Source: Candidatus Micrarchaeia archaeon (lineage in GTDB: Archaea; Micrarchaeota; Micrarchaeia; Micrarchaeales; Micrarchaeaceae). Taken from it: a DNA stretch of 64,000 nucleotides. Positions 2,372 to 63,531 of the stretch are shown here, in pieces. The stretch spans positions 925 through 64,924 of the forward strand of contig JBMFSF010000001.1 in assembly GCA_049967695.1 (NCBI GenBank), given 5' to 3'. Each line of letters starts with the position of its first letter. Position 1 is the first letter of the stretch. Both the position numbers and the translations under genes were made by a program. The notes under the pieces are model-generated. The model worked only from the letters and a program-made list of their open reading frames with translations. It searched no databases and was not told where the DNA came from.

Positions 2372-2773
2372 ATGGACAAGCTTTCAATAATAATGTACTC
2401 GGGCACTCTAGAAAAATTTATACCTTTGGGTGTGCTTTCCCAGGCAGCAGCAGCCCTGAACTTCCAAGTAAATATCTTCGTGGCTGGCTTCGGGCTGTTG
2501 GGATTTTTAAAACAGGAGCAGGCACTTCCTTTTGCTAAAGAGTTTGAAGGATTTGCCCCACAGCTTATTGCAGGCATGGCAAAAAACAATGTCCCAAGCT
2601 GGAAGGCTATGCTTCATGATGCAAAGGCACACGGCGCAAAGATTTATGTATGTTCTATGACTGCTTCTGCAATGAACCTGAAAAAGGAGGACTTCGATCC
2701 GCTTGTAGATGATGTGGTTGGTGCAGCCTCCTTTATTCTTGCGGCCGAAGATGGCGAGGTTATATTTATCTGA
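2372..2773 (+). CDS. DsrE/DsrF-like sulfur-relay family protein (COG2210-type)
   Basis: 133 aa. The pattern (LSIIMYSGTLEKF..., conserved Cys in IYVCSMTASAM) resembles DsrE-like proteins. Its stop overlaps the start of a TusA-like gene (TGATG). Confidence 0.6.
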   Translation: MDKLSIIMYSGTLEKFIPLGVLSQAAAALNFQVNIFVAGFGLLGFLKQEQALPFAKEFEGFAPQLIAGMAKNNVPSWKAMLHDAKAHGAKIYVCSMTASAMNLKKEDFDPLVDDVVGAASFILAAEDGEVIFI

Positions 2774-3018
2774 TGGGTGCTAATATGGCAGAAAACACGA
2801 TAGTCGATGCAAGGGGTGCAGCATGTCCTGGGCCTATTGTATCTCTTTCATCAGCGTACAGGAATTCCAAAGTCGGAGATGTGATTGAGCTTTGGGCTAC
2901 AGATCCTGGAGTTAAAAGCGACGTAACTGCCTGGGCAGCAAAAACAGGCAACCAGATTGTCTCAATATCAGAAGATGCAGATAAGATAATAATTGTGATA
3001 AAAATAGTCAAAAGGTAG
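2773..3018 (+). CDS. tusA: TusA/SirA-like sulfurtransferase
   Basis: 81 aa carrying the family signature DARGAACPGPIV (CPxP active-site Cys) and the typical ~75-80 aa size. An alternative ATG lies at 2785. Confidence 0.8.
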   Translation: MGANMAENTIVDARGAACPGPIVSLSSAYRNSKVGDVIELWATDPGVKSDVTAWAAKTGNQIVSISEDADKIIIVIKIVKR

Positions 3019-3023
3019 CTTTA

Positions 3024-4313
3024 ATGGCAAAGAAGAAACTGTTTATTGTAGGTGGCGGAGCAGGCGCAACAATCCTTGCAAACCATGTCTCTATGAAGGA
3101 TTTTGATATTACTGTTATTTCAAATTCAGAAATGCATGTTTTTCAACCAGCATTCCTCTATATAGCGTTTAAGGGCGCAAGCCAAAACGTTGCTAGGCCA
3201 GAGAGGGAGCTGCTTAAAAAAGGCATATCTCTTATAATAAACGAGGTAAAGAAGATAGATCTGGAAGCAAGGAAAATATACACTAATTCCGAAGTTTATT
3301 CTTATGACTATATAGCAATTGCTACAGGCACTTCTTCTGATGTTTCATTTATTCAGGGGCTGAAAGAGGTAAATGCAGAATTCGGTGATTATCATACCAG
3401 CGCAACACAGGCAGCCAAGCTATGGTCAAAAATAAACAACTTTTTTGGAGGCACGATTGCAATAGGGCAGGCCTCTCCGGTAATAAAATGCCCTCCTTCT
3501 CCATTGGAAGGCGCTTTTTTGATCGAGGAGCTGCTCGCAAAAAAACATCTGAAGTCCAAATCAAGGATTGTGTTCTTTACGCCGTATCCTAGGGCATATT
3601 CTGCTGAGCCAGTAGATGAGCAGGTTGCTCCACTGCTGAAGGAAAGGGGCATAGAGGTAATGACTTTTTTTGATATAGACAGAATAGACATTCAAAATAA
3701 AATCATCTACTCAATAGAGGGGGACAGTATAAAGTATGACCTTCCGATAATAATTCCAGGGTTTGTTGGTACGCCGATAGAATTTGTTCAATCTGGGGTA
3801 AAAGACTCCTCAAATTTCATAATCGTAGACAAAAACACAATGAAGATAAGGCCTTATGATAACGCCTTTGCAATAGGCGATTGCACAAATCTACCTACTT
3901 CTAAAGCTGGCGTTGGGGCAGAACTAGAAGCAAAGACTGTTGCCAAAATACTTAATGGAGAGGCAGCAGAATTCAACGGAAGGACAAACTGCCCATTCGA
4001 TGTGGGCTACAATAAAGCCACTTTCGTGATAAGCTCTTATACCGAGCCTGCATTGCAATACCCGATAACAAGGATGAACCATTTCATGAAGATGATGATG
4101 GAAAGAATATACTGGCACACCCTAAGCGGTAGGTTTGATTTTATCTTTGATTCCTTCTTCAAGCGTACAGACCCTTCAAAACTCAAGCAAAAGTACGGAA
4201 TGAAAAAGAAGGGGGAGCTCGCACCAGGATTGCAAGGCAATCCAAACGCGGCTAAAGTGCAGACACAGCCCTCCCAGCAAAGTCAGGACGACACCCAAGC
4301 AGATCAGAAATAA
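3024..4313 (+). CDS. sulfide:quinone oxidoreductase-like FAD-dependent pyridine nucleotide-disulfide oxidoreductase
   Basis: N-terminal Rossmann motif LFIVGGGAGATILA. Cys-containing segments VIKCPPSPLEG and GRTNCPFDVG, plus AFAIGDCTNLPTSKAG, are typical of SQR/NDH-2-type flavoproteins. A Q/K/P-rich low-complexity C-terminal tail follows. Confidence 0.6.
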   Translation: MAKKKLFIVGGGAGATILANHVSMKDFDITVISNSEMHVFQPAFLYIAFKGASQNVARPERELLKKGISLIINEVKKIDLEARKIYTNSEVYSYDYIAIATGTSSDVSFIQGLKEVNAEFGDYHTSATQAAKLWSKINNFFGGTIAIGQASPVIKCPPSPLEGAFLIEELLAKKHLKSKSRIVFFTPYPRAYSAEPVDEQVAPLLKERGIEVMTFFDIDRIDIQNKIIYSIEGDSIKYDLPIIIPGFVGTPIEFVQSGVKDSSNFIIVDKNTMKIRPYDNAFAIGDCTNLPTSKAGVGAELEAKTVAKILNGEAAEFNGRTNCPFDVGYNKATFVISSYTEPALQYPITRMNHFMKMMMERIYWHTLSGRFDFIFDSFFKRTDPSKLKQKYGMKKKGELAPGLQGNPNAAKVQTQPSQQSQDDTQADQK

Positions 4314-4328
4314 GCTTTATTTTATTTT

Positions 4329-5222
4329 TTATTCAAATTTGGCGAGGAATTCCCATTTGTCATTAATTTCCTTTTCTATTTCTTCAACATCTTCATCGCT
4401 TATTCCTGAGAATCTTCCCTGCAAGCTTAGATATTTCCTTATTGGTTGCCTTGCCTCTGGCTTTGCAAACTGCTTGCTTATTTGCGATATGAAAAGCTTC
4501 TTGTTTTCGTATTCGTAAAGTATCCAGATTCCTGTTTCAACAGCCAGTTTGCCGACTTCTACGGTTTTGCTTGCGTCCATCCTCCATCCTGGCGGGCATG
4601 GCGAATACAGTTGTATAAACTTGGTCCCTTTATGGCTCTGTGCCTTTTTCAGCTTTTCTATAAAGTCTGTAGGGTAAGAAACACTGGCTGTTGCCATATA
4701 CTCAAGCTGGTGCATCATCATTATCAGAGAGACATCTTTCTTGAACTCTCTTTTGCCCTCGGGTGTTGTGGTGGTCCACGCTCCGTGGGGCGTAGAGGAG
4801 GAGCGCTGTATGCCTGTATTCATATAAGCTTCATTGTCATACATTACATATATTATATTCTCCCCCCTTTCCGCAGCGCCGCTCAGTGACTGGAGCCCTA
4901 TGTCTGCAGTTCCTCCGTCTCCGGCCCATGCCACTACTGTTCCTTTCTTTCCAAGCTTTTCAAATGCTTCTGCTATGCCGCTTGCCGCAGCACCTGCACC
5001 AGCCATTGCTATATTAAGCAATGGAAAAGATGCAGAGCTTTTTGGCCAGCCACCTTGTACAACACTGGCGCAGCTTGCAGGTATTACTACTACAGGATCA
5101 TCTATGGCTTTTGCCATGAGCCTCATGCCTAGCGAAAGCCCGCATCCTGGGCACGATGAATTCCCAGGTATCCATTTTTCCTCGGTTTTTATATCCTTTA
5201 ATATCATTTTACTCACCTTCAA
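4329..5222 (-). CDS. porB: pyruvate:ferredoxin oxidoreductase, beta subunit (TPP-binding)
   Basis: CPGCG near the N-terminus, TPP motif AWAGDGGTADIG...NEAYMNTG, and last position in a porGDAB-ordered operon. Confidence 0.9.
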   Translation of the reverse strand: MKVSKMILKDIKTEEKWIPGNSSCPGCGLSLGMRLMAKAIDDPVVVIPASCASVVQGGWPKSSASFPLLNIAMAGAGAAASGIAEAFEKLGKKGTVVAWAGDGGTADIGLQSLSGAAERGENIIYVMYDNEAYMNTGIQRSSSTPHGAWTTTTPEGKREFKKDVSLIMMMHQLEYMATASVSYPTDFIEKLKKAQSHKGTKFIQLYSPCPPGWRMDASKTVEVGKLAVETGIWILYEYENKKLFISQISKQFAKPEARQPIRKYLSLQGRFSGISDEDVEEIEKEINDKWEFLAKFE

Positions 5223-6376
5223 GATCTAAGATTTACCCATTCATCCCCTACCTGCCTCTTCATTGTAGATTTTACTATTTTTGAATAATCTGCAGGAGTT
5301 ATGTCTCTTCCCCCAAGCCCAGCTATATAGCTTTTGATGAAAGGTTTGTAGCCGGAATCGTATACGAAAGACTTTATTTCATGTGCAAGGATGTTGCCTA
5401 TGCCAACGGAAAGCGCTCTTTCCACTATAGAGACATTTTTCACGTTTTTCATCATTTCCACAATCTCCTCATTTGGAAATGGTCTCATTACTCTTATCCT
5501 TAGTTCTCCTGCTTTTATACCTTCACTTCTCAGGCTGTCTACTGCCGCCTTCGCATCGCCGCTTGAAGCACCCATCGTTATTATTAGATTGTCTGCATCG
5601 TCGCATTTGTAGCAGTCTATAAGCCCGTAGCTTCTTCCGGATATTTTGGAATAGCCATCTGCGATCTCTTTTATGACCTTTTTTGCTTTCTGCATTGCCT
5701 GGAAGATTTTGTACCTGTGCTCCATCCACTCGTTCTGGTCTATGACATTTCCTACAGTCAATGGGCTGTCAATATCAAGAGCGTATGCGGGCATTCTCTT
5801 TCCCAAGAATTTTTGCACGTCATCTTTGCTTGGCTTGCTTACCGGCATGCTTGTGTGGGTAAGTATAAAGCCGTCAAGCCCAACCATTACTGGTAGCGAT
5901 AGCCTGCTGTCTTCTCCTATTTTGAAAGCTTGTATTGTGGTATCGAGCGCCTCCTGGTTGTCTTCCACCATTATCTGGATCCAGCCGCTGCTCTGCTGTA
6001 TCATGAAATCTGTGTGCTCGTTCAATATGCTCCAAGGAGCCGCCATTGCTCTTGTTGCTACTGCCATTACCATGGGCAGCCTTGCATGTGCAGCCCAGTA
6101 TACAGTTTCCGCCATATACATTAAGCCGTGGCTGGAGGTCGCAGTAAAAACCCTTGCGCCTGCAGCACTTGCGCCTATGCATGCACTCATCGCACTGTGT
6201 TCTGAATCTACTTTTATAAATTTGCTTTGCATTTCTTTTGCTGCAATGTAGGTTGAGAGGTCTTCCACAATCTCTGTTTGCGGGGTTATTGGAAATGCCG
6301 CGATTATGTCAGGATCTGCGAGTTTTACGCCCGTGGCCACGCTTCTGCTTCCGCTCATAACTTCTACATCTGCCAT
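5219..6376 (-). CDS. porA: pyruvate:ferredoxin oxidoreductase, alpha subunit
   Basis: 385 aa. AAFPITPQTEIVE and SEHSAMSACIGASAAGARVFTATSSHGL are characteristic of 2-oxoacid:ferredoxin oxidoreductase alpha subunits. A 4-nt overlap links it to porB. Confidence 0.9.
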   Translation of the reverse strand: MADVEVMSGSRSVATGVKLADPDIIAAFPITPQTEIVEDLSTYIAAKEMQSKFIKVDSEHSAMSACIGASAAGARVFTATSSHGLMYMAETVYWAAHARLPMVMAVATRAMAAPWSILNEHTDFMIQQSSGWIQIMVEDNQEALDTTIQAFKIGEDSRLSLPVMVGLDGFILTHTSMPVSKPSKDDVQKFLGKRMPAYALDIDSPLTVGNVIDQNEWMEHRYKIFQAMQKAKKVIKEIADGYSKISGRSYGLIDCYKCDDADNLIITMGASSGDAKAAVDSLRSEGIKAGELRIRVMRPFPNEEIVEMMKNVKNVSIVERALSVGIGNILAHEIKSFVYDSGYKPFIKSYIAGLGGRDITPADYSKIVKSTMKRQVGDEWVNLRS

Positions 6377-6377
6377 T

Positions 6378-6686
6378 TTACTCCTCCTTTTTCATATCTA
6401 TTGCCTTTACCGGGCACTCGTTTGCGCATATGCCACATCCCTTGCAGTAGTCGTAGTTTACCTCTACGCTGTTGTCCGCATGCCTTATTATAGTTGCCTC
6501 AGGGCACGCAGTCCAGCATATCAGGCATTTTATGCACTTATCATTGTTTACTACAGGCCTTTCAAGCCTCCATTCATTGGTTTTGCCCCCAGCTCCGAAA
6601 TCCGCCTTTGAAACTGGATACTCTTCTTTTATCTTGCTTATGTCATTGGTAGGCAGAACATATACCCCAATCTCTTTCATGCCCAT
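6378..6686 (-). CDS. porD: pyruvate:ferredoxin oxidoreductase, delta subunit (2x[4Fe-4S] ferredoxin)
   Basis: Two CxxCxxCxxxCP motifs: CIKCLICWTACPE and CKGCGICANECP. Size is 102 aa, and the gene lies between porG and porA. Confidence 0.9.
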   Translation of the reverse strand: MGMKEIGVYVLPTNDISKIKEEYPVSKADFGAGGKTNEWRLERPVVNNDKCIKCLICWTACPEATIIRHADNSVEVNYDYCKGCGICANECPVKAIDMKKEE

Positions 6687-6690
6687 TTGA

Positions 6691-7266
6691 TCATCTCAAA
6701 ACATTACAGTTTTCATATCCCTTCTCTGCTGCTGCTATGTTTTTATCAGCAAGCGGCTTGGGCCAATAATCTGCTATAGCTTTTTTTGCCGAATCTATGC
6801 TTATAACGTTAGACGCTTTGGCAAGCGCGCCAAGCATTGCCGTGTTAATTACCGGCCAGCCAGCTACAACAAGATTTAGCTCTTGTGCTATTGATATTGC
6901 GTCTACGTAAGCGAATTTTGCATCTGGCATTGCTTTTACATATTCTTCTATATCCGATTTGTCGCTGGCATTGAAAAGGATTGTCCCGTTCTTTTTTATC
7001 ATGTTTATGCTTATCTCTTCTTTTGCAAGCTTCAATAGCTCCTTATCCAGGACCATTATAATGTCCGCATTATAAATCTGGCTGTGCAGAGTTATTGGTT
7101 TGTCATCTATCCTTGCAAAAGATCTAACTGGTGCGCCTCTTCTTTCACCACCAAAAAAAGGAAATGCCTGTGAATATTTTCCTTCAAAATAACCTGCTCT
7201 GGCAATCAATTCAGAAGCGATGACAGCACCATGCCCTCCTCTTCCATAAAGTAGTATTTCCTGCAT
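6691..7266 (-). CDS. porG: pyruvate:ferredoxin oxidoreductase, gamma subunit
   Basis: 191 aa. GRGGHGAVIASELIA...FGGERRGAP is typical of the gamma subunit. It is the first gene of the operon. Confidence 0.9.
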   Translation of the reverse strand: MQEILLYGRGGHGAVIASELIARAGYFEGKYSQAFPFFGGERRGAPVRSFARIDDKPITLHSQIYNADIIMVLDKELLKLAKEEISINMIKKNGTILFNASDKSDIEEYVKAMPDAKFAYVDAISIAQELNLVVAGWPVINTAMLGALAKASNVISIDSAKKAIADYWPKPLADKNIAAAEKGYENCNVLR

Positions 7267-14544: not shown

Positions 14545-15012
14545 ATGTTGAAAGAAGCTGAATTGGTCGAGAAGACAATAGTGCTTAGAAACCTAAGAGT
14601 TACGAAGGAGGTTACAGAGACCCGCAGGTCCTTGGTCAGGTGGCTTGCCCTTTCATTGGGGATAATAAATCCGGGAGAATCCAGATCTTGGTCTATACCT
14701 GTATTTGACGCTCTATTATATTTCCAATTTGAGCTTGCAAAAGATCCAACAATTGCTGAAATATCTGAATATATAGGGAAAAGATGGTCTCCAATAAATG
14801 AAAAGACCCTCAGGTACCATCTTCTTCAGCTTAAAAAAGCCTCTTTTGTACAGAATTCAAAAGGCAAATTCTTTTTCACTCTTCCGCCAAACGGCGAGAA
14901 ATATGATATACGCTCATGGATGGAAAATTATTTCAATTCCGAGATAAATCCTGTTAAAGAAAAGATAATAGAAACTGCAAAGTCAATTTCTAATAAAACT
15001 GTGATCCCTTGA
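14545..15012 (+). CDS. hypothetical protein, winged-helix-like (putative DNA-binding)
   Basis: 155 aa. The segment PTIAEISEYIGKRWSPINEKTLRYHLLQLKKASFVQNSKGKFFF looks like an HTH followed by a wing. Its stop overlaps the start of the downstream surface-protein gene. Confidence 0.45.
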   Translation: MLKEAELVEKTIVLRNLRVTKEVTETRRSLVRWLALSLGIINPGESRSWSIPVFDALLYFQFELAKDPTIAEISEYIGKRWSPINEKTLRYHLLQLKKASFVQNSKGKFFFTLPPNGEKYDIRSWMENYFNSEINPVKEKIIETAKSISNKTVIP

Positions 15013-16634
15013 ACAACAAAATTTTTTTTGCTGCATTAGCAGCAATATTGATAGCCCTATCAATAGTTTTGATTTTATACTTGTCAATGCCAAAAGCCTC
15101 CAAAGCAATAAGCATTGGCGTGTCTGTACGTTTTTTGAACAATACAAAGCCCTTATATCCATATTCTCTATCAAAGATGCAAATATACATTAAAAATAAC
15201 GGTGAAAACCCGATACTCAATCTGCCAATGATAATATACTTTAACCATGTGCCTTACTCGTTTTTTGTTTCTATTCCTGGAGATGGCTATGTAGTAAAAA
15301 ATTTCACCTACATGTATAATTCTTCAGGCACATATACATTTTCGATAAAGCCAGATCCTGCAATGCTTCTCCCTATAGCAAACAGAAGCAGTTTTAATAA
15401 AACATATATTGTGAATGTTTTAAGCAATTCAACCCTTGCCCCTTACGATTCGCTGCCACAGTCCAATGCCTCAAATTCCTCATATTTTTCAATATCTCCA
15501 AAAAGCCTCATATATCTAGGGATTACTGGCGCTTATGGCATATCTAATGAAAGGACAGCAGGAATTTCATACGCGCTAATTCCTATAATAAACTACACTA
15601 AATATGTAGGAATTGCATACAATGCTTACAAGAACGGTACTGAAGAATATGCGGTGTGGCTACAAGGCACCCTGAATCCTGCATCGTTAGAAGGGCTGCT
15701 TCTACAGGAGAATAGGAACTTTAGCGTTGAATCTGCTGGCAACGCATCGCTCCTGCTTACAAATAAAAGCTCTTTCTGCATTTTTTACAGCGGTGGCTGG
15801 ACAAAACTTGTTATTCTAAACAAGCCAATAAACGCTTCGTCATGCAGACAAATTTCTACTTTCTCTGCCAATACTAATTTCTCGTCAGGTTTAAATTTTA
15901 CTTACAAGCAAAAATTCCTGAATTTTGTTTATCTGAACTCAACACCTATGGGCCAGCTGCTATGGCATTCTTCATCAGGCGTATATCGTGCTGCAAATAT
16001 ATTTGGAAATTCTGCAGGAGTATTCCTTTCAGTAATTGTTTTCGGTCAGAATTTTTCTAAGCCTGCAAATCTCTCATGCAATGGCAGCTATTACCTCCAG
16101 GGAGCCACTAGCATATGTTCTAAGCAAGTCAATATCTCCCTTCCAAATAAATTTATAATGCTGAATCAAACAGAGGTAACCAACCATTCGATATTGACGC
16201 TATATTCATTGGTAAATAGCTCTTTATATGACAGTGCAGCATATTCTGGGATAAAGCTTATAAGCTATCTCAATCTTACGGGCCTGCATTGGAATATTTC
16301 AGAGTTCAATCCTTGCAATTTCAGCAACAAGAACCTCTCATGCAAGCTAGAGTTTTTCAATCCTTCTTCATCAATAGCAAGCCTGCTGATAGGAAACAGT
16401 TTCTCTAAATCCATAAAATTGGATGGCCTGTCTTGTGGAATACCTGGCCTTGGCCGTGTTGCAAACGAGAGCATAGAAATTCCTTCAGGATCTTCTTCAT
16501 TGGTAAATGTGAGTTGCCGTAATCTCCCCATACCTAGCACATACTCCTACATTGTAAATGCAAGCTACAGTATCAATAACAAGACATATTATACAAACGG
16601 CACCCTTAAGATAAATAGCAATTATTTCAAGTAG
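15009..16634 (+). CDS. membrane-anchored extracellular glycoprotein candidate
   Basis: 541 aa. N-terminal TM (FFAALAAILIALSIVLILYL) followed by dozens of NxS/T sequons by eye. TTG start overlaps the stop of the upstream gene. Confidence 0.55.
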   Translation: MNNKIFFAALAAILIALSIVLILYLSMPKASKAISIGVSVRFLNNTKPLYPYSLSKMQIYIKNNGENPILNLPMIIYFNHVPYSFFVSIPGDGYVVKNFTYMYNSSGTYTFSIKPDPAMLLPIANRSSFNKTYIVNVLSNSTLAPYDSLPQSNASNSSYFSISPKSLIYLGITGAYGISNERTAGISYALIPIINYTKYVGIAYNAYKNGTEEYAVWLQGTLNPASLEGLLLQENRNFSVESAGNASLLLTNKSSFCIFYSGGWTKLVILNKPINASSCRQISTFSANTNFSSGLNFTYKQKFLNFVYLNSTPMGQLLWHSSSGVYRAANIFGNSAGVFLSVIVFGQNFSKPANLSCNGSYYLQGATSICSKQVNISLPNKFIMLNQTEVTNHSILTLYSLVNSSLYDSAAYSGIKLISYLNLTGLHWNISEFNPCNFSNKNLSCKLEFFNPSSSIASLLIGNSFSKSIKLDGLSCGIPGLGRVANESIEIPSGSSSLVNVSCRNLPIPSTYSYIVNASYSINNKTYYTNGTLKINSNYFK

Positions 16635-16902
16635 TCTTAACTATGAAGTCTAAGGCAGTTTTTCCCTTTGGGAAAGCTCTTTTTCCGCCGGCTTCAACAG
16701 GCATTCCCATAAGGTCTGCTATTCTCTCTATTTCAGAAAGCTCTACAAGCCTTGGACTATAAAGCTCGTTATAATAGCTGTTTTCGATTTCGACTTTTTT
16801 TACCGAAAAGCTTAGCTGCTGAAGCATGCCTGCTCTTTTTACCCTTATTTTTACAAAGCCTCTTTTTATTATCTCGTCTTTGGAATACTCCAAAACAAGC
16901 AC
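16627..16902 (-). CDS. hypothetical 91-aa protein, probably co-transcribed with the single-repeat TBP gene
   Basis: Complete ORF starting 8 nt after the TBP-repeat gene stop on the same strand. No recognised motif. Confidence 0.4.
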   Translation of the reverse strand: MLVLEYSKDEIIKRGFVKIRVKRAGMLQQLSFSVKKVEIENSYYNELYSPRLVELSEIERIADLMGMPVEAGGKRAFPKGKTALDFIVKTT

Positions 16903-16910
16903 CTGACGGC

Positions 16911-17267
16911 TTATGCTTCGCTTATTTCTGGTGCCTTCTTTTCAGGTTTTTCATTTATTACATATTTTGAAACTACTTCTGCAACTTTTTTCAGTACTTT
17001 CTCTATGTCTGCTTTGCTTTTTGCCCCAGTGCATATCATCTTTCCATTTTTGAAAAGTATAATTGCAGCTTTTGGATCTGATACCCTATAAATAGCTCCG
17101 GGAAACTGTTCTGGCTCGTAATCTACGTCCTTCACATGTTTTGCAAGCTCATGAAGGTCTATGGTAGCATGTAAATCTCCATGTGCGACCATGTTCTGTA
17201 TCTCTATTTTTGGCTTTATTACACTGCCTGCCTCGTTTTTAACACTATTGGACATTTGCTCACTCAT
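16911..17267 (-). CDS. TATA-box-binding protein, single repeat only (half-TBP)
   Basis: 118 aa with one complete TBP repeat: IEIQNMVAHGDLHATIDL...YEPEQFPGAIYRVSDPKAAIILFKNGKMICTGAKSKADIEKV. Canonical TBPs carry two such repeats in about 180 aa. Confidence 0.8.
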   Translation of the reverse strand: MSEQMSNSVKNEAGSVIKPKIEIQNMVAHGDLHATIDLHELAKHVKDVDYEPEQFPGAIYRVSDPKAAIILFKNGKMICTGAKSKADIEKVLKKVAEVVSKYVINEKPEKKAPEISEA

Positions 17268-17457
17268 TATATTAGTTTTAAGAATAAAGAATTCTTAAAT
17301 ATTTCTATGCTAAAAATACTCTATGGTTTTTGAATAGCAAATCCCTTTTATAGGTTTTATAAATTTTGTATTGAATAAGATACTGCACAATGCTTGCAAA
17401 AAGCAGCAGACGTGCGCCTGCCAATGCTTATGAATAGAATCTATATTTCGGCTTTGC

Positions 17458-18606
17458 GTGCATAAAAACCATTTAAAACAATATGTTAAACTGAATATAG
17501 AAAAGGTGCTGGAAACGCGCACTGATTTGGAAGGAGTCATAATAGTGGGCGGAGGCCCTGCGGGTCTGATAGTTGCCAGAGAACTTGCAGGCATGGGCTT
17601 AGAAGTTGATGTTTATACCTCCGAGCAAGAGATAGGGGAAAGGGCAGCCTACGCTTCAGGAATACTCTCCGCAAAGGCAGTTTCAAATCTTGGCTTAGAT
17701 GTTTCAGCTTCTATAAAAAACAGCTTCAATGCAGCATCCTTTCATTTCTCTAATACTGATTTCACAGTAAAATCCGAATCTGCAAAAGCTTTTCTTCTTG
17801 ACAGGAAAAATCTTTCAAAGCAGCTTGCTTCTGCTGCTATGAAATCTGGCGCAAGAATATTTACAAATAGGAGAATGTCAAAAGAATTGCTTGTTGAGCT
17901 GTCTGCTAATCATATAATCGTGGGTGCTGATGGTGCAGTATCTACTGTAGCTAGCACTTTTGGTTTCCCTCCAATAGAAAGGTACGTGCTTACTTACAAG
18001 GCAGAATACAAGCTTAAAGAACCTCTACAGGATAAAAGCAAGGTGGAAATATTTTTTAGTAGGCATGCAAAAGGCTTTTTTGGATGGCTTGCTCCCCATT
18101 CATATAATAAAATAGAGGTAGGAATAGGAATAGATAGTGTTTTTAGGACCAGCAGCAAGTCTGCTTTTTCTAATTTAATTTCTGGTTTAGGCATTGACGG
18201 AGAGGTTTGTAGCGAATATGCCAGCCTTATTCCTCTGTCTTTCAGGCGCAAGACAGCAAAAGGCAATGTCCTTTTGGTAGGGGATGCAGCAGGGCAGACT
18301 AAAGCCTCTACTGGAGGAGGCATTGCTTTCAATACTGTAGCAGCAAGGCTTGCAGCAAGTTCAATTTACGAATTCCTGTCTGGTAAGAAAGACACAATAG
18401 AGTATGAGAAAAAATGGAAGCGCGCACTTCTTACAGATATGCGTATCCATTCTTTCATAAACAGGGCTTATTCTTCTCCGTCTTTTGAATTTATGGTGAA
18501 GCTTCTGAAAATAGCAGGCATGGAAAAAGCGCTGAGCAACTATGGCAATATGGATAGTCCCTCTGATACAATCAAGCGCATAATACTTAGGAGGAAGATG
18601 CAGTAG
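17458..18606 (+). CDS. geranylgeranyl reductase family FAD-dependent oxidoreductase
   Basis: FAD-binding VIIVGGGPAGLIVARELAGMGLEV, later VGADGAVSTVA and LLVGDAAGQTKASTGGGI, typical of the archaeal GGR family. GTG start in the ORF track; the exact start is uncertain. Confidence 0.75.
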   Translation: MHKNHLKQYVKLNIEKVLETRTDLEGVIIVGGGPAGLIVARELAGMGLEVDVYTSEQEIGERAAYASGILSAKAVSNLGLDVSASIKNSFNAASFHFSNTDFTVKSESAKAFLLDRKNLSKQLASAAMKSGARIFTNRRMSKELLVELSANHIIVGADGAVSTVASTFGFPPIERYVLTYKAEYKLKEPLQDKSKVEIFFSRHAKGFFGWLAPHSYNKIEVGIGIDSVFRTSSKSAFSNLISGLGIDGEVCSEYASLIPLSFRRKTAKGNVLLVGDAAGQTKASTGGGIAFNTVAARLAASSIYEFLSGKKDTIEYEKKWKRALLTDMRIHSFINRAYSSPSFEFMVKLLKIAGMEKALSNYGNMDSPSDTIKRIILRRKMQ

Positions 18607-28785: not shown

Positions 28786-28873
28786 CGGGCCCGGCGGGAT
28801 TTTCATGTTCATTTTGAACCCGCGACCATTAGCTTAGAAGGCTACCGCTCTGTCCAAGCTGAGCTACGGGCCC
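28786..28873 (-). tRNA. tRNA-Arg(TCT) with a 13-nt insertion (putative intron) in the T-loop
   Basis: Minus strand reads GGGCCCG TA GCTC AGCTTGGACA GAGC G GTAGC CTTCTAA GCTAA TGGTC GCGGG TTCAAAATGAACATGAAAAT CCCGC CGGGCCC G. The cloverleaf is perfect apart from one 27:43 mismatch and a 20-nt T-loop. Removing 13 nt gives the canonical TTCAAAT. CCA is not encoded. Confidence 0.8.
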
Positions 28874-50067: not shown

Positions 50068-50214
50068 GCATTTAAGATATAAGATTTCTAATTATTAAAT
50101 GCTTTGTGTGTCATCTGCTCTTTGTAAATGAGGAAATGGAGTATAGCTATTTGTATATTTGAAGAAAAAGCTTAAATATAATAAAGCTTACTTTTATAGC
50201 TGTGGAATGAGAAT

Positions 50215-51082: not shown

Positions 51083-51216
51083 AATAACTATTCTTATTTA
51101 ATCTTTTAATATCTTTTGATGGCTTTGGCACAAATTTTTCAGCCAATTTCTATTTGCTACCATCAAAATATAGAAAGTGTATTATTTTTTTGCGCAACAT
51201 TAATTTTGGTGATTTG

Positions 51217-52455
51217 ATGGAAGTGCCTTCCAGCCCTGAGAATACTAATAAAATAATGAGCATAATAAACGAGCATCAGCAGATATCTTATAACGAGCTC
51301 GTTGAGTTTGCTTCTTCTAGCGGAATAGACGAAGCAACCCTTAAGAATATTTTGAAAGATCTTGAAAACATGAAAAATGTCGCATCAAGAAATATAGGCG
51401 GCATGCTCATATACTATCCTTTGGTGCAAGAGCCGCATCTTCAAAAAATACTAATAGTAGAGGACGATCCAAACATAAACAGGCTCATGGCCCTTTCGGT
51501 TAGCAAGGCTTTTGACATAAAGCAGATAACGCAAATTTATGATGGGGGCGAGGCACTTCCAAAAATTCGCGAAATAAAGCCTGATCTTATAATACTGGAT
51601 TTGATGCTTCCAAACAAAAGCGGGCTTGATATCTGCCAGACTGTTAAAAGCGATCCAGAGATAAAAAATGCAATAGTGATAATAGTAAGCGCAGTAGACC
51701 CTACAACAAACAGGCTTAAAAGCCTTCAGTATGGCGCAGACTATTACATTAAAAAGCCTTTTGATCCTATGGAGCTCAGAAGCCTTGTCACAATATTCCT
51801 GAAGAAAAAAGGCAAAAGGTTTGATCCCTTGATAGACCTCCCTGATGAGGAGCGTATATCTAAAGAGGTAGAAAAGGCAATCAACTCAGGAGAGCAATAT
51901 ACGATAGGAATGGTAAAAATAGAAAACCTTGGAAGCTATGCTCGCAGGTTTGGGGAGAAGTACGCATTTACTATATTGAGGCTTGTTTCGCAGCTTCTCC
52001 AGGACATAATCAATACCAGTGAGAAAAATACATTTATAGGATTCTTGAACAATGAGTCCTTTGTAATAGGGGGCCAGACAACCAGCGTGGAAGATGCCAT
52101 AACAAGACTCCGCAAGGAATTTAATGATGTACTTCCGTTTATACTTCAGGATGTAGGCTACAAGCAGCTGGACCTAGACATAGATAGCCTCTTTGAAACC
52201 AAAGAGATACCAAAGCTTGGCATTACTTATAGCCAGATAGAGAAAAATGAGATCAAGGAGCGCCGCGACGAGATACTTAAAACCAAGAAATCCTCTGAAA
52301 AGGACATAGGCTCATATACATACGATGAACTGCAAAAGCTTTTCGACAGCAATGATTTTGATATAAAAATAACTAGAGGGGCAAATGGAGTGGAGCTTCA
52401 TGTTGCGAAATCCCAAGAAGAAAAAAAATATGATTCTGACAATATGAACATATAA
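51217..52455 (+). CDS. response regulator: N-terminal wHTH-like domain, CheY-like receiver, degenerate GGDEF-like domain
   Basis: The receiver reads KILIVEDDPNINRLM...KPDLIILDLMLPNKSG...IIVSA...YIKKPF. The C-terminal half aligns to the GGDEF fold: DPLIDLPDEE..., IGMVKIENLGSYARRFGEKYAFTILRLV..., and FIGFLNNESFVIGG in place of RxGGDEFxxx. The ATG at 51217 is preferred to the TTG at 51154. Confidence 0.8.
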   Translation: MEVPSSPENTNKIMSIINEHQQISYNELVEFASSSGIDEATLKNILKDLENMKNVASRNIGGMLIYYPLVQEPHLQKILIVEDDPNINRLMALSVSKAFDIKQITQIYDGGEALPKIREIKPDLIILDLMLPNKSGLDICQTVKSDPEIKNAIVIIVSAVDPTTNRLKSLQYGADYYIKKPFDPMELRSLVTIFLKKKGKRFDPLIDLPDEERISKEVEKAINSGEQYTIGMVKIENLGSYARRFGEKYAFTILRLVSQLLQDIINTSEKNTFIGFLNNESFVIGGQTTSVEDAITRLRKEFNDVLPFILQDVGYKQLDLDIDSLFETKEIPKLGITYSQIEKNEIKERRDEILKTKKSSEKDIGSYTYDELQKLFDSNDFDIKITRGANGVELHVAKSQEEKKYDSDNMNI

Positions 52456-54750: not shown

Positions 54751-56994
54751 TTATTGTGGTGCAGTAGCTTCATCATTCTGTTTTTTTCTCTGCTTGGTGT
54801 CGGATCCATTTATTGGAAGTATGAAAAAGAATTTGCTTCCTTTTCCAAGCTCTGATTCTACTCCTATCTTGCCTTTATGAAGCAGAATTATCTTTTTAGC
54901 TATCGAAAGTCCGAGCCCAGTGCCAGATTTTGGAGGCGAGGTAAGGTCTTTTCTTGTGGTAGCTTGGTAGAACTCCCTAAACAGCTTCTTCTTGTCCTCT
55001 GGGCTTATTCCAACGCCTGTATCTATTACATCGCATTCTATGTACTTTTTCGTTTTCCTGAATGTATGTACAGTTATCCCTCCCTTATCTGTGAATTTGA
55101 TTGCGTTGCTTATCAAGTTTACAAGAACTTGTATTATCCTGTTCTGGTCTGCCATAATCTTAGGGACATTGTAATCTACTGTCCATTTGAAGAAAAGCCC
55201 TTTTGCTATAGCGTTTCCTTTTATTGCCTTAATGCTTGAAGTATCCTCAAGCTCCCTGAAGTCTATTTCGTTTATTTCAAGCTTTATCTTGTTAGCATCA
55301 AGTTTGGAAGCGTCTAGTACCTGCTGTATTATAAGCATCAGCCTGTTTGACTCGTCTATTATTGTTTTGATATATCCTTTTTGTTCATCGTTTAGCTCTC
55401 CAAACTCGCCGTTAATCAGAAATTTTGCATAACCTATTATGCTAGTGAGCGGGGATTTTAATTCGTGGGATATATTGTATATGAACTGCGACTTTAGATC
55501 GCTTATGCTTCTCAATCTGTTGCTTATGTTTGTCTGCCTTTTAAGCTCCAGTTCCATATCGTTAAGCCTGCGCTTTGTCTCCAATTCCTTTATCAAAAAC
55601 ATGTAATATGTTTGCGAGTTTACTTTTTCTATCTCTCTTATCGAGTAGATTGCAGAAAGCTTTGATTGGTCCTTTTTTATAAGGACTACGTAGCTGTTGT
55701 CTATCTTGTTGCCATTTTTAATATAGCCGAAATCCCTGTCCAATATATTAATATCTTCATAAATAGTCTTTATCTCTTTTCCAATAAGCTCGTCCTTAGG
55801 ATAGCCAAGTATATTTTCAACGGACATATTGCAGTATTTGATAAATCCAAGCTCGTCTACTATAAATATCGGATCAGAAGAGACATTTGCAAGGTCATAA
55901 AAATTGTTTACCAGCTTGCTCGTATTTACTGCCATGTCATTATTCTTCAATAACAGCAATATCTTCCCATAGCCTCTGCTCGCATATATATGCAGGTATC
56001 TTTTCTTGCCATTGGCGTTAATATAATACTCTCCTATGTCTTTTGTCCCATTTTCATAATCCAGGCTCTGGCTGAATTTCTGTCCTATACTTTCTTCCAT
56101 TAAATTTTCCAGTTTTCCTTCAGCAAGAAATTCGCTAGGTTGCCCAAGCACTTTGTCTACATTCGCGCTTGCGTATTCTATTTTGTGCGTTTTTTCATTT
56201 AGTATGAGGAGGCTTTCATCGCTTTCGGATTCAAACAGCGACAAAAGCCCATTTTTAAGTTTCGAATCTGTTGCTTTGTTAAAGAACAATATCTCAAGGT
56301 TCTCATTTATGTCATTGGCAGATATGTAGTATATGTTGTTTCCAATTGCTTTCTCCAAGCCGGACTTGAGAGCAGATTGTATCTCCTCTGCTTGCACATT
56401 TATCTCAGATATGCTTGCCCCTTCTTTAAGCACCTCAAACTCCCTTAATGTTGCTTCGTTTGTTTTCACAACTGTGCCGTTCTTGTTGGCAAGTATTGTA
56501 GGAATTCCGGAATCGAAAGCCGCAGAGAAATAGCTTGCCAATCTTGCACTCTTTTCGGTTTCTATCTTGTAGACTATAACATAGCCTGCGAAATACGAGG
56601 CTATCAAAGCCAGATTTACAATCTGGGTATTGAATTTGCTTTCGTATTTTGAAAGCATTTCGAATATTGCAACCACTCTTCCATTTGCTATAATAGGAAT
56701 TCCAACATAGCTCTTGTACCCTGAATTGAACGCTTCTATAAGCTCTGAAAATGTGGAGTAGCTGCTCAGCTGGTTATCTATATACGGCGTTTTTGTGTTT
56801 GTTATATATTCGTAAAGCTTGCTTTCTCCTTTTTCGTTTATGCTTACTATATCTGCTTTCTCAACCCCAAACACGTTGAGGGCAGTTTCCTTGAACTTCA
56901 ATATGAAATCGTCCTTGCTCATGCTGCTGTTTGCTAACGGGATTATATCATCAAACAGCTTGCCGATGAGAAGGTTGATTTCGGTCATGAGCAT
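54751..56994 (-). CDS. soluble sensor histidine kinase (GAF + multiple PAS-like domains + HisKA + HATPase_c)
   Basis: H-box ISHELKSPLTSIIGYAKFL, N-box LVNLISNAIKFT, G1 VIDTGVGI, G2 SGTGLGLSIAKKIILLHKG. A roughly 480-aa N-terminal sensory region has no TM segments. Confidence 0.9.
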   Translation of the reverse strand: MLMTEINLLIGKLFDDIIPLANSSMSKDDFILKFKETALNVFGVEKADIVSINEKGESKLYEYITNTKTPYIDNQLSSYSTFSELIEAFNSGYKSYVGIPIIANGRVVAIFEMLSKYESKFNTQIVNLALIASYFAGYVIVYKIETEKSARLASYFSAAFDSGIPTILANKNGTVVKTNEATLREFEVLKEGASISEINVQAEEIQSALKSGLEKAIGNNIYYISANDINENLEILFFNKATDSKLKNGLLSLFESESDESLLILNEKTHKIEYASANVDKVLGQPSEFLAEGKLENLMEESIGQKFSQSLDYENGTKDIGEYYINANGKKRYLHIYASRGYGKILLLLKNNDMAVNTSKLVNNFYDLANVSSDPIFIVDELGFIKYCNMSVENILGYPKDELIGKEIKTIYEDINILDRDFGYIKNGNKIDNSYVVLIKKDQSKLSAIYSIREIEKVNSQTYYMFLIKELETKRRLNDMELELKRQTNISNRLRSISDLKSQFIYNISHELKSPLTSIIGYAKFLINGEFGELNDEQKGYIKTIIDESNRLMLIIQQVLDASKLDANKIKLEINEIDFRELEDTSSIKAIKGNAIAKGLFFKWTVDYNVPKIMADQNRIIQVLVNLISNAIKFTDKGGITVHTFRKTKKYIECDVIDTGVGISPEDKKKLFREFYQATTRKDLTSPPKSGTGLGLSIAKKIILLHKGKIGVESELGKGSKFFFILPINGSDTKQRKKQNDEATAPQ

Positions 56995-62175: not shown

Positions 62176-63105
62176 CTATGATATATTTCCACTATCTATG
62201 GAAGCTATTATGCCATCTATTATGCCGTTTACACCTATGCCTCCGGTAGATCTTACTGCTATCCTGTGGCTTAGGACAGGCCTTGCCAAGAATTTTATAT
62301 CATCTATTGTTGCTTCATTCCTTTGGTGTATAAGCGCCCTTGCTTTTGCGCACTGCATAAAGCTTATCTCTGCCCTTGGGCTTCCTCCCATTACTACGTG
62401 TATGTCTTCTCTTGAAGCATCTACAACCTTTGTGATATAATCAAGTACTTCGTCGCTTATTGCAATCTTTTTTGCATCTGCCTGCAATGCCAATATATCG
62501 TCTATTCCAAGAACTTTTTTTACTTCTATTGTTTCTTCTCTGTCTTTTATCCTTAACATCTCTTTTTCTTCTTCTTGTGAAGGATATGTCACATTTATTT
62601 TCATTAGGAACCTGTCTGCAAGCACTTTCGGTAGTGCCACTGTCCCCTCTATGTTAAGGGGGTTTTGCGTTGCAAAAGCAGTAAACGGCTTTGGCAGAGG
62701 GAAAGTTTGATCTCCTATCGTCACCTGTTTTTCTTCCAGGGCTTCAAGCAGTGCAGACATTACCTTTGGCTGCATCCTATTTAGCTCATCTATAAGAAAC
62801 AAGTTTGTAAATATTGCCCCTTTTTTGATTTTTAAGCGGCCGCTTTGATCCTGGTAGACATAGCCTGCGATATCTGCTATTGAGAGGTCCGGAGTGCCTT
62901 GTACCCTGCCAAATCCTGCGTCTATGATCTGTGCCAGTGTTTTTGTCATTGTTGTTTTTGCGACTCCAGGAACTCCTTCAAGCATAACATTTCCTTGCGC
63001 AATAACCGAAATAAACATTAGCTCTATCACATCTTCTTTTCCTGCAATATGCTTTTTCATTTCCGTCAATACTTGTTCATATAGCTGGTTTAATGGCATT
63101 TGCAT
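62176..63105 (-). CDS. MoxR-like AAA+ ATPase
   Basis: Walker A LEGVPGVAKTTM, Walker B FLIDELNRMQPKV and ATQNPLNIEGTVALPKVLADRF are typical of MoxR/RavA-class ATPases. 309 aa. Confidence 0.9.
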   Translation of the reverse strand: MQMPLNQLYEQVLTEMKKHIAGKEDVIELMFISVIAQGNVMLEGVPGVAKTTMTKTLAQIIDAGFGRVQGTPDLSIADIAGYVYQDQSGRLKIKKGAIFTNLFLIDELNRMQPKVMSALLEALEEKQVTIGDQTFPLPKPFTAFATQNPLNIEGTVALPKVLADRFLMKINVTYPSQEEEKEMLRIKDREETIEVKKVLGIDDILALQADAKKIAISDEVLDYITKVVDASREDIHVVMGGSPRAEISFMQCAKARALIHQRNEATIDDIKFLARPVLSHRIAVRSTGGIGVNGIIDGIIASIDSGNIS

Positions 63106-63166
63106 AACCTTTATAAAATATAATTACATATATATTACTGGTAAAAATTATAAAGGTAGTGAGTAA

Positions 63167-63502
63167 GTGATTGGAAAAGAAATTGCAGAGCCAGAGGTAG
63201 TTCCATTGTATAAAGTGCTTGAAATACTTAACAAAATAGAAAAAAACCGAGAGCTTACTTATGAGCAAAAGGTTTCAAAAGAATATGCTGAATTGTTTAA
63301 GGTAGATGCTAGTAGAATGGAAAAGATAAGGCCAGAACTTGAAAAGCTGGGCATAAGCGAAGTATCAATATCTATTCTGCTTAGTTTTGCTCCAGAGAAT
63401 CCCGAAACAATAAGGCAGATTCTTTCATCTGAAAACAAGAACTTTAATGAAGAAGATATCAATAAAATATCCAAATTATTAAGTGGCAAGGAGAGCAAAT
63501 AA
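63167..63502 (+). CDS. rpoF: DNA-directed RNA polymerase subunit Rpo4 (RpoF)
   Basis: 111 aa. VPLYKVLEILNKIEKNRELTYEQKVSKEYAELF...ELEKLGISEVSISILLSFAPENPETIRQIL follows the Rpo4/RpoF pattern. GTG start. Followed by its usual DUF655 neighbour. Confidence 0.8.
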   Translation: MIGKEIAEPEVVPLYKVLEILNKIEKNRELTYEQKVSKEYAELFKVDASRMEKIRPELEKLGISEVSISILLSFAPENPETIRQILSSENKNFNEEDINKISKLLSGKESK

Positions 63503-63531
63503 AGTAATAAGTATAAGGGGAAGGTGGGTTC

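What the first reader, a model, noticed from the sequence alone, without database searches (positions are those of the whole stretch)
16911..17267. Stand-alone single-repeat TATA-binding protein (half-TBP)
The 118-aa product contains exactly one TBP repeat with all hallmark segments: IQNMVAHGDL, YEPEQFPGAIYRV, PKAAIILFKNGKMICTGAKS. Canonical archaeal and eukaryotic TBPs are about 180 aa with two tandem repeats that together form the DNA-binding saddle.

I found no second repeat in any frame nearby:
- Upstream lies a roughly 190-nt spacer followed by a divergently oriented reductase gene.
- Downstream, 8 nt away, lies an unrelated-looking 91-aa ORF (16627-16902).

From my memory of Pyrococcus TBP (YEPEQFPGVIYRV..PK..LLFSSGKIVCSGAKS), the repeat resembles the C-terminal repeat of canonical TBPs. 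A homodimer of this protein would recreate a symmetric saddle. That is the postulated ancestral state before gene duplication and fusion. The tightly linked 91-aa ORF could alternatively be a divergent partner.
Basis: partly seen in the sequence, partly recalled or inferred. Interest (0 to 1): 0.7.

Follow-up and report, generated by a model that had tools for sequence, protein, structure and literature searches.

The report
One-repeat TATA-binding protein of Micrarchaeota
This tiny archaeon, and at least 80 related species, encode the transcription start factor TBP as half a protein (one repeat, not two), so it probably pairs with itself to clamp DNA, as has been proposed for the ancestor of all TBPs.

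Summary
ORF 16911-17267 (-) encodes 118 aa with exactly one full-length TBP repeat (PF00352, E 1.8e-28). No second repeat exists in any frame of the 64-kb window.

It is not a truncation or a frameshift. Single-repeat orthologues of 87-168 aa, 50-67% identical, occur once each in 80 species-level Micrarchaeota genomes. They form one clade (95% bootstrap) under strong purifying selection (dN/dS about 0.09), often beside the same reductase gene. All DNA-contact residues and the TFB-binding stirrup YEPEQFPG are kept.

The best explanation is a homodimeric, symmetric TBP. This is inferred, not shown. I could not show that it is the only TBP in the genome.

The "surviving ancestor" reading is not supported. 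The clade sits among two-repeat TBPs and leans towards C-terminal repeats.

The nearest two-repeat relatives have repeats that are 77-92% identical, and similar at synonymous sites too. That points to recent duplication, gene conversion or collapse of repeats.

The 91-aa neighbour is an unrelated small family and not a conserved partner.

I found no description of this family in the held literature. NCBI annotation calls these proteins "hypothetical".

The parts
16911..17267 (-). Coding sequence of the single-repeat TBP (118 aa from the first ATG). NCBI's gene call starts at the second ATG, 17255, giving 114 aa (MGC8567716.1 / MGC8729780.1, 'hypothetical protein ACP5RP_00115').
   Evidence: ORF list and sequence. 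Exact match to P0001. PF00352 match at E 1.8e-28.
16956..17216 (-). The single TBP repeat, residues 18-104. It carries the DNA-contact residues N25, V27, F55, F72, I78 and T80, and the stirrup Y50-G57 (YEPEQFPG).
   Evidence: Pfam match 20-102 over profile positions 1-85 of 85. Alignments to both repeats of P. woesei and M. jannaschii TBP. N25, V27, Y50-G57, F72, I78 and T80 are invariant in the alignment of 43 single-repeat proteins. The roles of these residues come from established knowledge of TBP-DNA and TBP-TFB crystal structures.
16911..16955 (-). Short lysine/glutamate-rich C-terminal tail (residues 105-118) plus the stop codon. Length and sequence vary among orthologues.
   Evidence: Alignment A2. 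Tail lengths in 80 loci.
17217..17267 (-). Variable N-terminal tail (residues 1-17). It is not conserved in the family.
   Evidence: Alignment A2. N-terminal extensions have a median of about 18 residues.
17268..17457 (.). A 190-nt AT-rich divergent intergenic region shared with the reductase gene. It must hold the promoters of both genes. A TATA-like ATATTTAAG lies about 29-37 nt upstream of the ATG.
   Evidence: Sequence. The promoter assignment is inference only; the motif search was inconclusive.
17458..18606 (+). Geranylgeranyl-reductase-family FAD protein. It is the conserved neighbour that marks the locus as orthologous across Micrarchaeota.
   Evidence: Pfam and NCBIfam matches. The same neighbour appears in loci L002-L005, L009-L010 and L061. 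A homologue lies within about 700 nt in 47 of 80 loci, and in 35 of them it is divergent as here.

Best explanation
The gene encodes a functional TATA-binding protein reduced to one of the two usual repeats.

Shown:
- The one-repeat architecture is real.
- It is conserved as one copy per genome across a large Micrarchaeota clade.
- It is under strong purifying selection.
- It keeps every residue class that ordinary TBP repeats use to bind and kink DNA and to dock TFB.

Inferred:
- Two copies pair through their central beta-strands into a symmetric ten-stranded saddle. Each copy supplies one pair of intercalating phenylalanines and one YEPEQFPG stirrup.
- The dimer acts as the general promoter-recognition factor.
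- Because such a dimer is symmetric, promoter direction would be set by TFB reading the BRE, as is already known for archaeal promoters.
- In evolutionary terms it is most likely a secondary reduction. A TBP whose two repeats were kept nearly identical could collapse to one repeat by recombination between them.
For: 1. One full PF00352 repeat and no second repeat in the window.

2. The best 80 hits in species-representative genomes come from 80 different Micrarchaeota assemblies, including contigs or chromosomes of 0.93-1.21 Mb. Each locus has exactly one repeat within +/-4 kb in all six frames. ORFs are mostly 87-168 aa.

3. Orthology is supported by conserved linkage to the reductase gene and nuo operon.

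4. Selection is strong. Median dN/dS is 0.09 over 371 pairs. Across all pairs, non-synonymous difference is 0.12 against 0.76 synonymous. 31 positions are invariant in 43 sequences, including N25, V27, YEPEQFPG, F72, I78 and T80.

5. The single-repeat clade has 95.5% bootstrap support.

6. No assembly shows two half-TBP genes among the 80 loci or among the named proteins. This favours a homodimer over a heterodimer.

7. The closest two-repeat TBPs have repeats 77-92% identical in protein and 76-86% in DNA. Their same-amino-acid codon identity is 0.62-0.72 against 0.27 for a saturated control. So near-perfect symmetry is tolerated in this lineage, and repeats are being duplicated or homogenised.

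8. An artificial tandem of two copies of the window protein, with an alignment of natural two-repeat TBPs, folds with pLDDT 90.2 and pTM 0.78. It superposes on whole archaeal TBPs at TM 0.85-0.91 and rmsd about 2 A.

9. In a conspecific contig, the RpoF-DUF655 neighbourhood that holds the two-repeat gene in relatives has no TBP.
Against: - Dimerisation was not tested directly, because no multimer predictor was available.
- The confident tandem model leans on an alignment of real two-repeat TBPs. The same kind of tandem with an alignment of single-repeat proteins only was low-confidence (pLDDT 54.8, pTM 0.39), so the structural support is weak.
- Whole genomes could not be scanned. A conventional two-repeat TBP elsewhere in the genome is not excluded. 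Only about 75 kb of this species was seen (the window plus loci L091 and L092).
- Deep branches of the repeat tree are unresolved. The single-repeat clade grouped with group A, the two-repeat proteins P0002-P0005, in only 40% of bootstraps. The direction of change, loss or gain of a repeat, is therefore argued from parsimony and not shown.
Confidence: 0.65

Rival explanations
1. Accessory paralogue. The genomes also carry a normal two-repeat TBP elsewhere. The half-size protein would be an extra factor, for example a regulator or a competitor for TATA or TFB, like the single TBP-domain proteins known in Halobacteria and Thermococcales.
For: - Single TBP-domain proteins that coexist with full TBPs are documented (PMC3597702).
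- I could not scan whole genomes.
- Some MAGs labelled Micrarchaeota do encode two-repeat TBPs (P0010).
Against: - The Thermococcales proteins are very diverged from TBP, and the halobacterial ones are near-copies of a resident full TBP.
- Here the protein is a high-scoring TBP repeat. All functional residues are invariant and dN/dS is 0.09.
- Its nearest two-repeat relative is only about 57% identical and comes from other contigs.
- No two-repeat hit shares a contig length with any half-TBP contig, including the 0.94-Mb one. This is weak evidence, because the searches were capped.
- The locus that holds the two-repeat gene in relatives has no TBP in this species.
Confidence: 0.2
2. Heterodimer. 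The half-TBP pairs with a second, divergent TBP-fold protein encoded separately, either the 91-aa neighbour or an unlinked gene.
For: - The 91-aa ORF is only 8 nt downstream on the same strand.
- Split genes are common in DPANN archaea (general knowledge).
Against: - The 91-aa protein has no Pfam, NCBIfam or PDB match and no profile similarity to TBP.
- It belongs to its own small family.
- It is not next to the half-TBP in loci L002-L005 and L009-L010.
- In locus L085 it lies upstream on the other strand, paired with the 541-aa ORF homologue.
- No genome shows a second half-TBP gene among the 80 loci.
Confidence: 0.07
3. Artefact or pseudogene. A two-repeat gene was cut by an assembly frameshift, a contig error or a recent truncation.
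For: Most 'single-domain TBPs' in older databases proved to be misannotated full TBPs (PMC3597702).
Against: - No second repeat in any frame of the window or of 80 orthologous loci.
- The identical protein appears in a second MAG and in an independent JGI metagenome contig.
- Purifying selection is strong.
- The intergenic spacer of 190 nt is shorter than one repeat (about 255 nt).
Confidence: 0.01
4. Relic. The single-repeat gene descends directly from the pre-duplication ancestor of all TBPs and never had a second repeat.
For: - With midpoint rooting, the clade of single-repeat and symmetric two-repeat proteins branches outside both the N and C clusters of conventional TBPs.
- Deep nodes are unresolved.
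Against: - The distribution is confined to one clade of one DPANN phylum.
- All other archaea and eukaryotes share the N/C duplication (established knowledge). A relic would therefore require this lineage to branch before the last common ancestor of archaeal TBPs.
- The family is measurably closer to C repeats.
- Neighbouring lineages show young repeats, so repeat number is demonstrably labile here.
Confidence: 0.05

Closest known systems
Canonical archaeal TBP (two PF00352 repeats, about 180-200 aa; for example P. woesei 1PCZ/1AIS, M. jannaschii 2Z8U, S. acidocaldarius 1MP9)
   Same: - Same domain family: about 40-50% identity to single repeats, E 1e-43 for the whole chains.
- Same DNA-contact residues and the same YEPEQFPG stirrup.
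- It probably does the same job.
   Different: - Only one repeat per polypeptide, so the saddle must be built from two chains and would be perfectly symmetric.
- It scores about 100 bits against NCBIfam TBP models whose cut-offs are 181-347 bits, so it is annotated 'hypothetical'.
Two-repeat TBPs with nearly identical repeats (P0002-P0010, 192-199 aa; P0010 is labelled Micrarchaeota, the others are unlabelled metagenome or MAG proteins)
   Same: - These are the closest relatives: 45-57% identity per repeat.
- They share motifs such as DVDYEPEQFPGAIY and LFKNGK.ICTG.
   Different: - They are fused tandems with 70-92% identity between repeats, against 35-51% in conventional TBPs.
- The two whose loci were fetched, P0004 and P0009, sit beside L21e-RpoF-DUF655 and not beside the reductase gene.
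Monopartite TBP-domain proteins of Thermococcales (Brindefalk et al. 2013, PMC3597702)
   Same: They are stand-alone proteins of about 82-136 aa with one TBP-fold domain.
   Different: - They are strongly diverged from TBP. They coexist with a normal TBP in the same genome and have no known function.
- The present family is a high-scoring, residue-for-residue TBP repeat.
Halobacterial TbpA-type single-domain TBPs
   Same: One TBP repeat that clusters with real TBP repeats.
   Different: - They are near-copies of full-length TBPs from the same multi-TBP genomes and are non-essential.
- The present family has no close full-length counterpart and is conserved across at least 80 species.

Membership tests
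TBP domain family (Pfam PF00352) | Significant full-length match to the TBP repeat profile | tested here: met
   98.7 bits against a cut-off of 22.9, E 1.8e-28, profile positions 1-85 of 85.
Canonical TBP (archaeal/eukaryotic general transcription factor) | Two tandem TBP repeats in one polypeptide, forming a pseudo-symmetric saddle | tested here: not met
   - One repeat only.
- No second repeat in six frames of the window or of 80 orthologous loci.
- NCBIfam TBP models score about 100 bits against cut-offs of 181-347 bits.
Canonical TBP (archaeal/eukaryotic general transcription factor) | DNA-binding residues: a pair of intercalating Phe per repeat, plus the minor-groove Asn, Val and Thr of strands S1 and S5 | tested here: met
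   - F55 (EQFPG), F72 (ILFKNGK), N25, V27, I78 and T80 align with the corresponding residues of P. woesei and M. jannaschii TBP.
- All six are invariant in the 43-sequence family alignment.
- The residue roles come from published TBP-DNA structures, not from a test here.
Canonical TBP (archaeal/eukaryotic general transcription factor) | TFB/TFIIB-binding stirrup (the YEPEQFPG type of the C-terminal repeat) | tested here: met
   Y50-E-P-E-Q-F-P-G57 is invariant across the family and identical to the C-repeat stirrup of P. woesei TBP.
Canonical TBP (archaeal/eukaryotic general transcription factor) | Formation of a ten-stranded saddle (here it would need homodimerisation) | tested here: inconclusive
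   - A fused tandem proxy with an alignment of two-repeat TBPs gave pLDDT 90.2 and TM 0.85-0.91 to solved TBPs.
- A tandem with an alignment of single-repeat proteins only gave pLDDT 54.8.
- No multimer predictor was available.
Canonical TBP (archaeal/eukaryotic general transcription factor) | TATA-box binding and bending, and support of RNAP/TFB initiation | not testable with these tools
   This needs biochemistry.
Canonical TBP (archaeal/eukaryotic general transcription factor) | Being the genome's general TBP, with no other TBP present | not tested
   - Whole genomes could not be scanned.
- Only the 64-kb window plus about 11 kb of conspecific flanks were seen, with no other repeat.
Thermococcales monopartite TBP-domain proteins (PMC3597702) | Sequence strongly diverged from TBP repeats, forming a cluster separate from TBP | tested here: not met
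   The window protein matches TBP repeats at E 1e-17 to 1e-22 per repeat and about 45% identity. The published family shows only marginal similarity.
Halobacterial TbpA-type truncated TBPs (PMC3597702) | Very similar to a full-length TBP of the same species | tested here: inconclusive
   The best two-repeat relative in 5.8 billion proteins is 57% identical and lies on unrelated contigs. The rest of this genome was not visible.

The most novel reading that the evidence does not exclude
In a whole clade of Micrarchaeota the only TBP is a protein of about 100 aa with one repeat, which works as a perfectly symmetric homodimer. Repeat number in this lineage also changes in both directions: collapse to one repeat, re-duplication to two nearly identical repeats, and perhaps three-repeat intermediates. 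The changes would come from recombination between repeats. That would make the proposed homodimer-to-fused-dimer step in TBP origin an ongoing, observable process and not a unique ancient event.
Probability: 0.5. Interest if true: 0.85.

Novelty: new variant of a known kind. Interest (0 to 1): 0.72.

Why it matters
TBP is the textbook case of a protein thought to have arisen by duplication and fusion of a gene for a homodimeric DNA binder. Until now the homodimeric stage has only been a hypothesis or a design exercise.

A natural, conserved one-repeat TBP would give a direct experimental system for several questions:
- Can a symmetric saddle recognise promoters?
- How is promoter direction set: by TFB and the BRE alone?
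- What did fusion and asymmetry add?

It also shows that a core component of the archaeal transcription machinery can be halved in genome-reduced DPANN archaea.

There is a practical consequence too. Annotation pipelines whose TBP cut-offs assume two repeats label these genes "hypothetical". Comparative surveys that rely on such annotation may therefore score these genomes as lacking TBP.

Tried and rejected
1. Frameshift or truncation. Rejected by six-frame profile scans of the window and of 80 loci.

2. The 91-aa ORF as a TBP-like partner. Rejected:
- The word-based search found only the protein itself.
- The exhaustive search shows an independent small family.
- There is no similarity to TBP, Pfam or PDB, and linkage is not conserved.
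- The 91-aa gene downstream of the two-repeat TBP in locus L008 is unrelated.

3. A long 477-aa "fusion" in locus L061. It is an artefact: an open antisense frame across the reductase gene in a high-GC genome.

4. Testing for a co-resident two-repeat TBP by matching contig lengths in protein searches. This was uninformative. The profile search saturated at 8000 candidates and listed mostly Bathyarchaeia-type TBPs.

5. Homodimer modelling.
- The accepted tandem with an alignment of single-repeat proteins only was low-confidence and says nothing.

6. Promoter or TATA symmetry.
- An EM motif search on 31 upstream regions gave a weak AAGC-WTAAAT (BRE/TATA-like) motif at scattered positions.
- The motif was not palindromic (correlation 0.11 with its own reverse complement).
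- The data are too few to conclude anything.

7. Literature. Seven full-text searches found no description of single-repeat TBPs in Micrarchaeota or DPANN. Only the 2013 survey of Halobacteria and Thermococcales turned up. The library covers open-access papers only.

8. The first bootstrap attempt timed out. It was redone with a custom neighbour-joining routine.

Full report
**What is in the window**

The minus-strand ORF 16911-17267 encodes 118 aa.
- Pfam finds a single PF00352 (TBP) match covering the whole 85-position profile, residues 20-102: 98.7 bits, E 1.8e-28.
- Against PDB sequences the protein aligns once to each repeat of archaeal TBPs. For P. woesei 1pcz the scores are 66.0 bits (N repeat) and 82.8 bits (C repeat). 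For M. jannaschii 2z8u they are 70.8 and 78.6 bits.
- The reading frame is closed 9 codons upstream of the ATG.
- A phmmer --max search of every stop-to-stop segment in all six frames of the 64-kb window returns only this ORF; the next hit has E 0.81.
- The 190-nt spacer to the divergent gene is shorter than a repeat.

**Where it comes from**

The identical protein is NCBI MGC8567716.1 / MGC8729780.1, [quoted passage not shown], on a 118-kb contig. It also occurs on an independent JGI metagenome contig.

The rest of the window is ordinary archaeal housekeeping:
- the nuo operon, SRP54, SecY and proteasome alpha;
- SBDS and the exosome genes, L37ae and fibrillarin;
- GlnRS/GluRS, pyruvate:ferredoxin oxidoreductase and RpoF.

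**It is a conserved architecture, not an accident**

- *Protein search.* Of the 120 best hits among 5.8 billion proteins, 89 are single-repeat proteins of 90-149 aa, 50-67% identical to the window protein. Nearly all those with labels are called Micrarchaeota, and a few "Marsarchaeota".
- *Genome scan.* A scan of one genome per GTDB species returned 151 relatives. The best 80 come from 80 different assemblies, including contigs or chromosomes of 0.93, 1.05 and 1.21 Mb.
- *Repeat count.* A six-frame hmmsearch --max with a family HMM finds exactly one repeat in each of those 80 loci, match +/-4 kb. ORF lengths are mostly 87-168 aa. The one 477-aa outlier is an open antisense frame, not a fusion.
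- *Orthology.* The divergent geranylgeranyl-reductase-family gene, with the nuo operon behind it, recurs in loci L002-L005, L009-L010 and L061. A homologue lies within about 700 nt in 47 of 80 loci.
- *Selection.* It is strongly purifying. Median dN/dS is 0.09 over 371 pairs with unsaturated dS. Across all pairs, non-synonymous difference is 0.12 against 0.76 synonymous.
- *Monophyly.* The single-repeat sequences form one clade in 191 of 200 neighbour-joining bootstraps.

**Does it look like a working TBP?**

In a 43-sequence alignment 31 positions are invariant. They include:
- N25 and V27 in strand S1;
- the stirrup Y50-E-P-E-Q-F-P-G57, with F55;
- F72 in ILFKNGK;
- I78, C79 and T80.

Aligned to the solved archaeal TBPs, and read with published knowledge of TBP-DNA and TBP-TFB structures, these residues have known roles:
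- F55 and F72 are the two intercalating phenylalanines.
- N25, V27, I78 and T80 make the minor-groove contacts.
- Y50-G57 is the TFB-docking stirrup of a C-terminal repeat.

This is unlike the monopartite TBP-domain proteins of Thermococcales, which are barely similar to TBP. It is also unlike halobacterial TbpA, which copies a resident full TBP (PMC3597702).

**How it most likely works**

One repeat is half a saddle. The economical reading is a homodimer built by pairing of the two S1 strands. It would have two Phe pairs and two TFB-competent stirrups, and promoter polarity would be left to TFB and the BRE.

Support for this is indirect:
- No assembly shows a second half-TBP gene.
- Near-perfect symmetry is tolerated in the closest two-repeat relatives (see the next section).
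- A fused tandem of the window protein, modelled with an alignment of natural two-repeat TBPs, gives pLDDT 90.2 and pTM 0.78. It matches whole TBP structures at TM 0.85-0.91 and rmsd about 2 A.

I give that model little weight. A tandem with an alignment of single-repeat proteins only was low-confidence (pLDDT 54.8), and AlphaFold was trained on solved structures that include TBPs. Dimerisation is inferred, not shown.

**Is it the only TBP?**

This is not shown.
- I saw no other repeat in the window. There is also none in 9.5 kb beyond its end, read from a 99.7%-identical conspecific contig. About 1.2 kb beyond its start was fetched but not scanned for TBP repeats, and no TBP gene is called there.
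- In two of the symmetric two-repeat relatives (P0004 and P0009), the TBP gene sits next to L21e-RpoF-DUF655.
- This species has the MoxR-RpoF-DUF655 block at 62176-64000 and onward, but no L21e or TBP follows it.
- No two-repeat hit shares a contig length with a half-TBP contig. Those searches were capped, so this is weak evidence.

**Evolution**

The nearest two-repeat TBPs (P0002-P0010) are remarkable in their own right.
- Their N and C repeats are 70-92% identical to each other. In the conventional TBPs of the same hit list the figure is 35-51%.
- For P0004 the repeats are 91% identical in protein and 86% in DNA. For P0009 the figures are 77% and 76%.
- Codons encoding the same amino acid are identical in 72% (P0004) and 62% (P0009) of cases, against 27% for a saturated control.
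- In the tree, both repeats of P0002-P0005 group together in 99.5% of bootstraps, instead of splitting into N and C clusters as conventional TBPs do.

Repeats in this lineage are therefore young or are being homogenised. Recombination between such repeats would produce exactly a one-repeat gene.

Other points bear on the direction of change:
- The single-repeat family HMM scores C repeats of conventional TBPs above N repeats in 13 of 17 cases (mean +7 bits, p = 0.02).
- The family is restricted to one DPANN clade.

Together these argue for a secondary reduction and not a surviving pre-duplication ancestor. The deep nodes are unresolved, however. The single-repeat clade grouped with P0002-P0005 in only 40% of bootstraps.

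**The 91-aa neighbour**

It is a real gene of a small uncharacterised family, with 51 representatives at E <= 1e-3.
- It has no Pfam, NCBIfam or PDB match and no profile similarity to TBP.
- It is absent from the downstream position in loci L002-L005 and L009-L010, and among the 80 loci a homologue was found in only one, L085.
- In L085 it lies upstream on the opposite strand, next to a homologue of the 541-aa ORF.

It is not a partner of the half-TBP.

**Novelty**

Seven full-text searches found no report of single-repeat TBPs in Micrarchaeota or DPANN.
- The 2013 survey knew only the halobacterial and Thermococcales cases.
- A DPANN comparative paper simply scores TBP as "conserved in about 88.8% of genomes".
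- NCBI's pipeline names most of these proteins "hypothetical", because a single repeat reaches about 100 bits against cut-offs of 181-347 bits.
- IMG labels them TFIID/TBP without comment.

I therefore class it as a new variant of a known kind. The caveat is that the library holds open-access papers only.

Noticed in passing
P0002-P0010 (loci L006:6001-6591 and L008:6001-6591): These two-repeat TBPs have N and C repeats 70-92% identical in protein. In the two with DNA in hand (P0004, P0009) the repeats are 76-86% identical in DNA and share synonymous codons. Only P0010 is labelled Micrarchaeota. This indicates recent internal duplication or gene conversion. The two whose loci were fetched, P0004 and P0009, sit next to L21e-RpoF-DUF655.
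   Followed up: partly
P0122-P0126 (metagenome contigs of 1.2-2.6 kb): Five proteins of 272-289 aa carry three TBP repeats. In at least P0122 and P0123 the middle repeat is a hybrid of the other two, as expected from unequal crossing-over between repeats. It could equally be a misassembly. They are not Micrarchaeota-type sequences.
   Followed up: partly
window 16627-16902 (-): The 91-aa ORF belongs to an uncharacterised family of about 85-110 aa proteins. The consensus reads ...RVKR.GM.Q..F.V...L..DR.I...EL.R.A.E.GLPV...NG..FPKGK.A.DF. There are 51 representatives at E <= 1e-3, with no Pfam or PDB match. In locus L085 it is paired with a homologue of the 541-aa ORF.
   Followed up: partly
window 15009-16634 (+): A 541-aa ORF with an N-terminal hydrophobic segment and very many N-x-S/T sequons. 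It has no Pfam match and is probably a glycosylated surface protein. A homologue lies in locus L085.
   Followed up: no
window 62176-64000, and L091:1-12215: The MoxR AAA+ and RpoF(Rpb4)-DUF655 block is arranged as it is beside the two-repeat TBP in locus L006. In this species it is followed by Endo_dU, SMC and an M50 peptidase, with no L21e or TBP.
   Followed up: yes
window 28786-28873 (-): An 88-nt tRNA found by Rfam (55.9 bits) but missed by ARAGORN. It may contain an intron or be otherwise atypical.
   Followed up: no
window 51154-52455 (+) and 54751-56994 (-): A response regulator with an N-terminal Penicillinase_R-type winged helix, and a PAS histidine kinase. This is a bacterial-style two-component pair in a small DPANN genome.
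   Followed up: no
L078 (DATJMH010000015.1), and L037, L039, L075, L079, L081, L089: A contig filed under 'Candidatus Saccharimonadales bacterium', and several MAGs labelled 'Marsarchaeota', carry the Micrarchaeota-type half-TBP. These are probably mis-binned or mislabelled.
   Followed up: no
window, 31 upstream regions (for example 1694-1773, 50135-50214): Upstream regions share a weak AAGC-WTAAAT motif that resembles a BRE plus TATA box. Its positions relative to the start codons are scattered, and the data are too few to judge TATA symmetry.
   Followed up: partly
window 2372-4313 (+): A DsrE-like, TusA and pyridine-nucleotide-disulphide/sulfide-dehydrogenase-like gene trio (sulfur relay or oxidation) lies next to a four-subunit pyruvate:ferredoxin oxidoreductase operon at 4329-7266 (-).
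   Followed up: no
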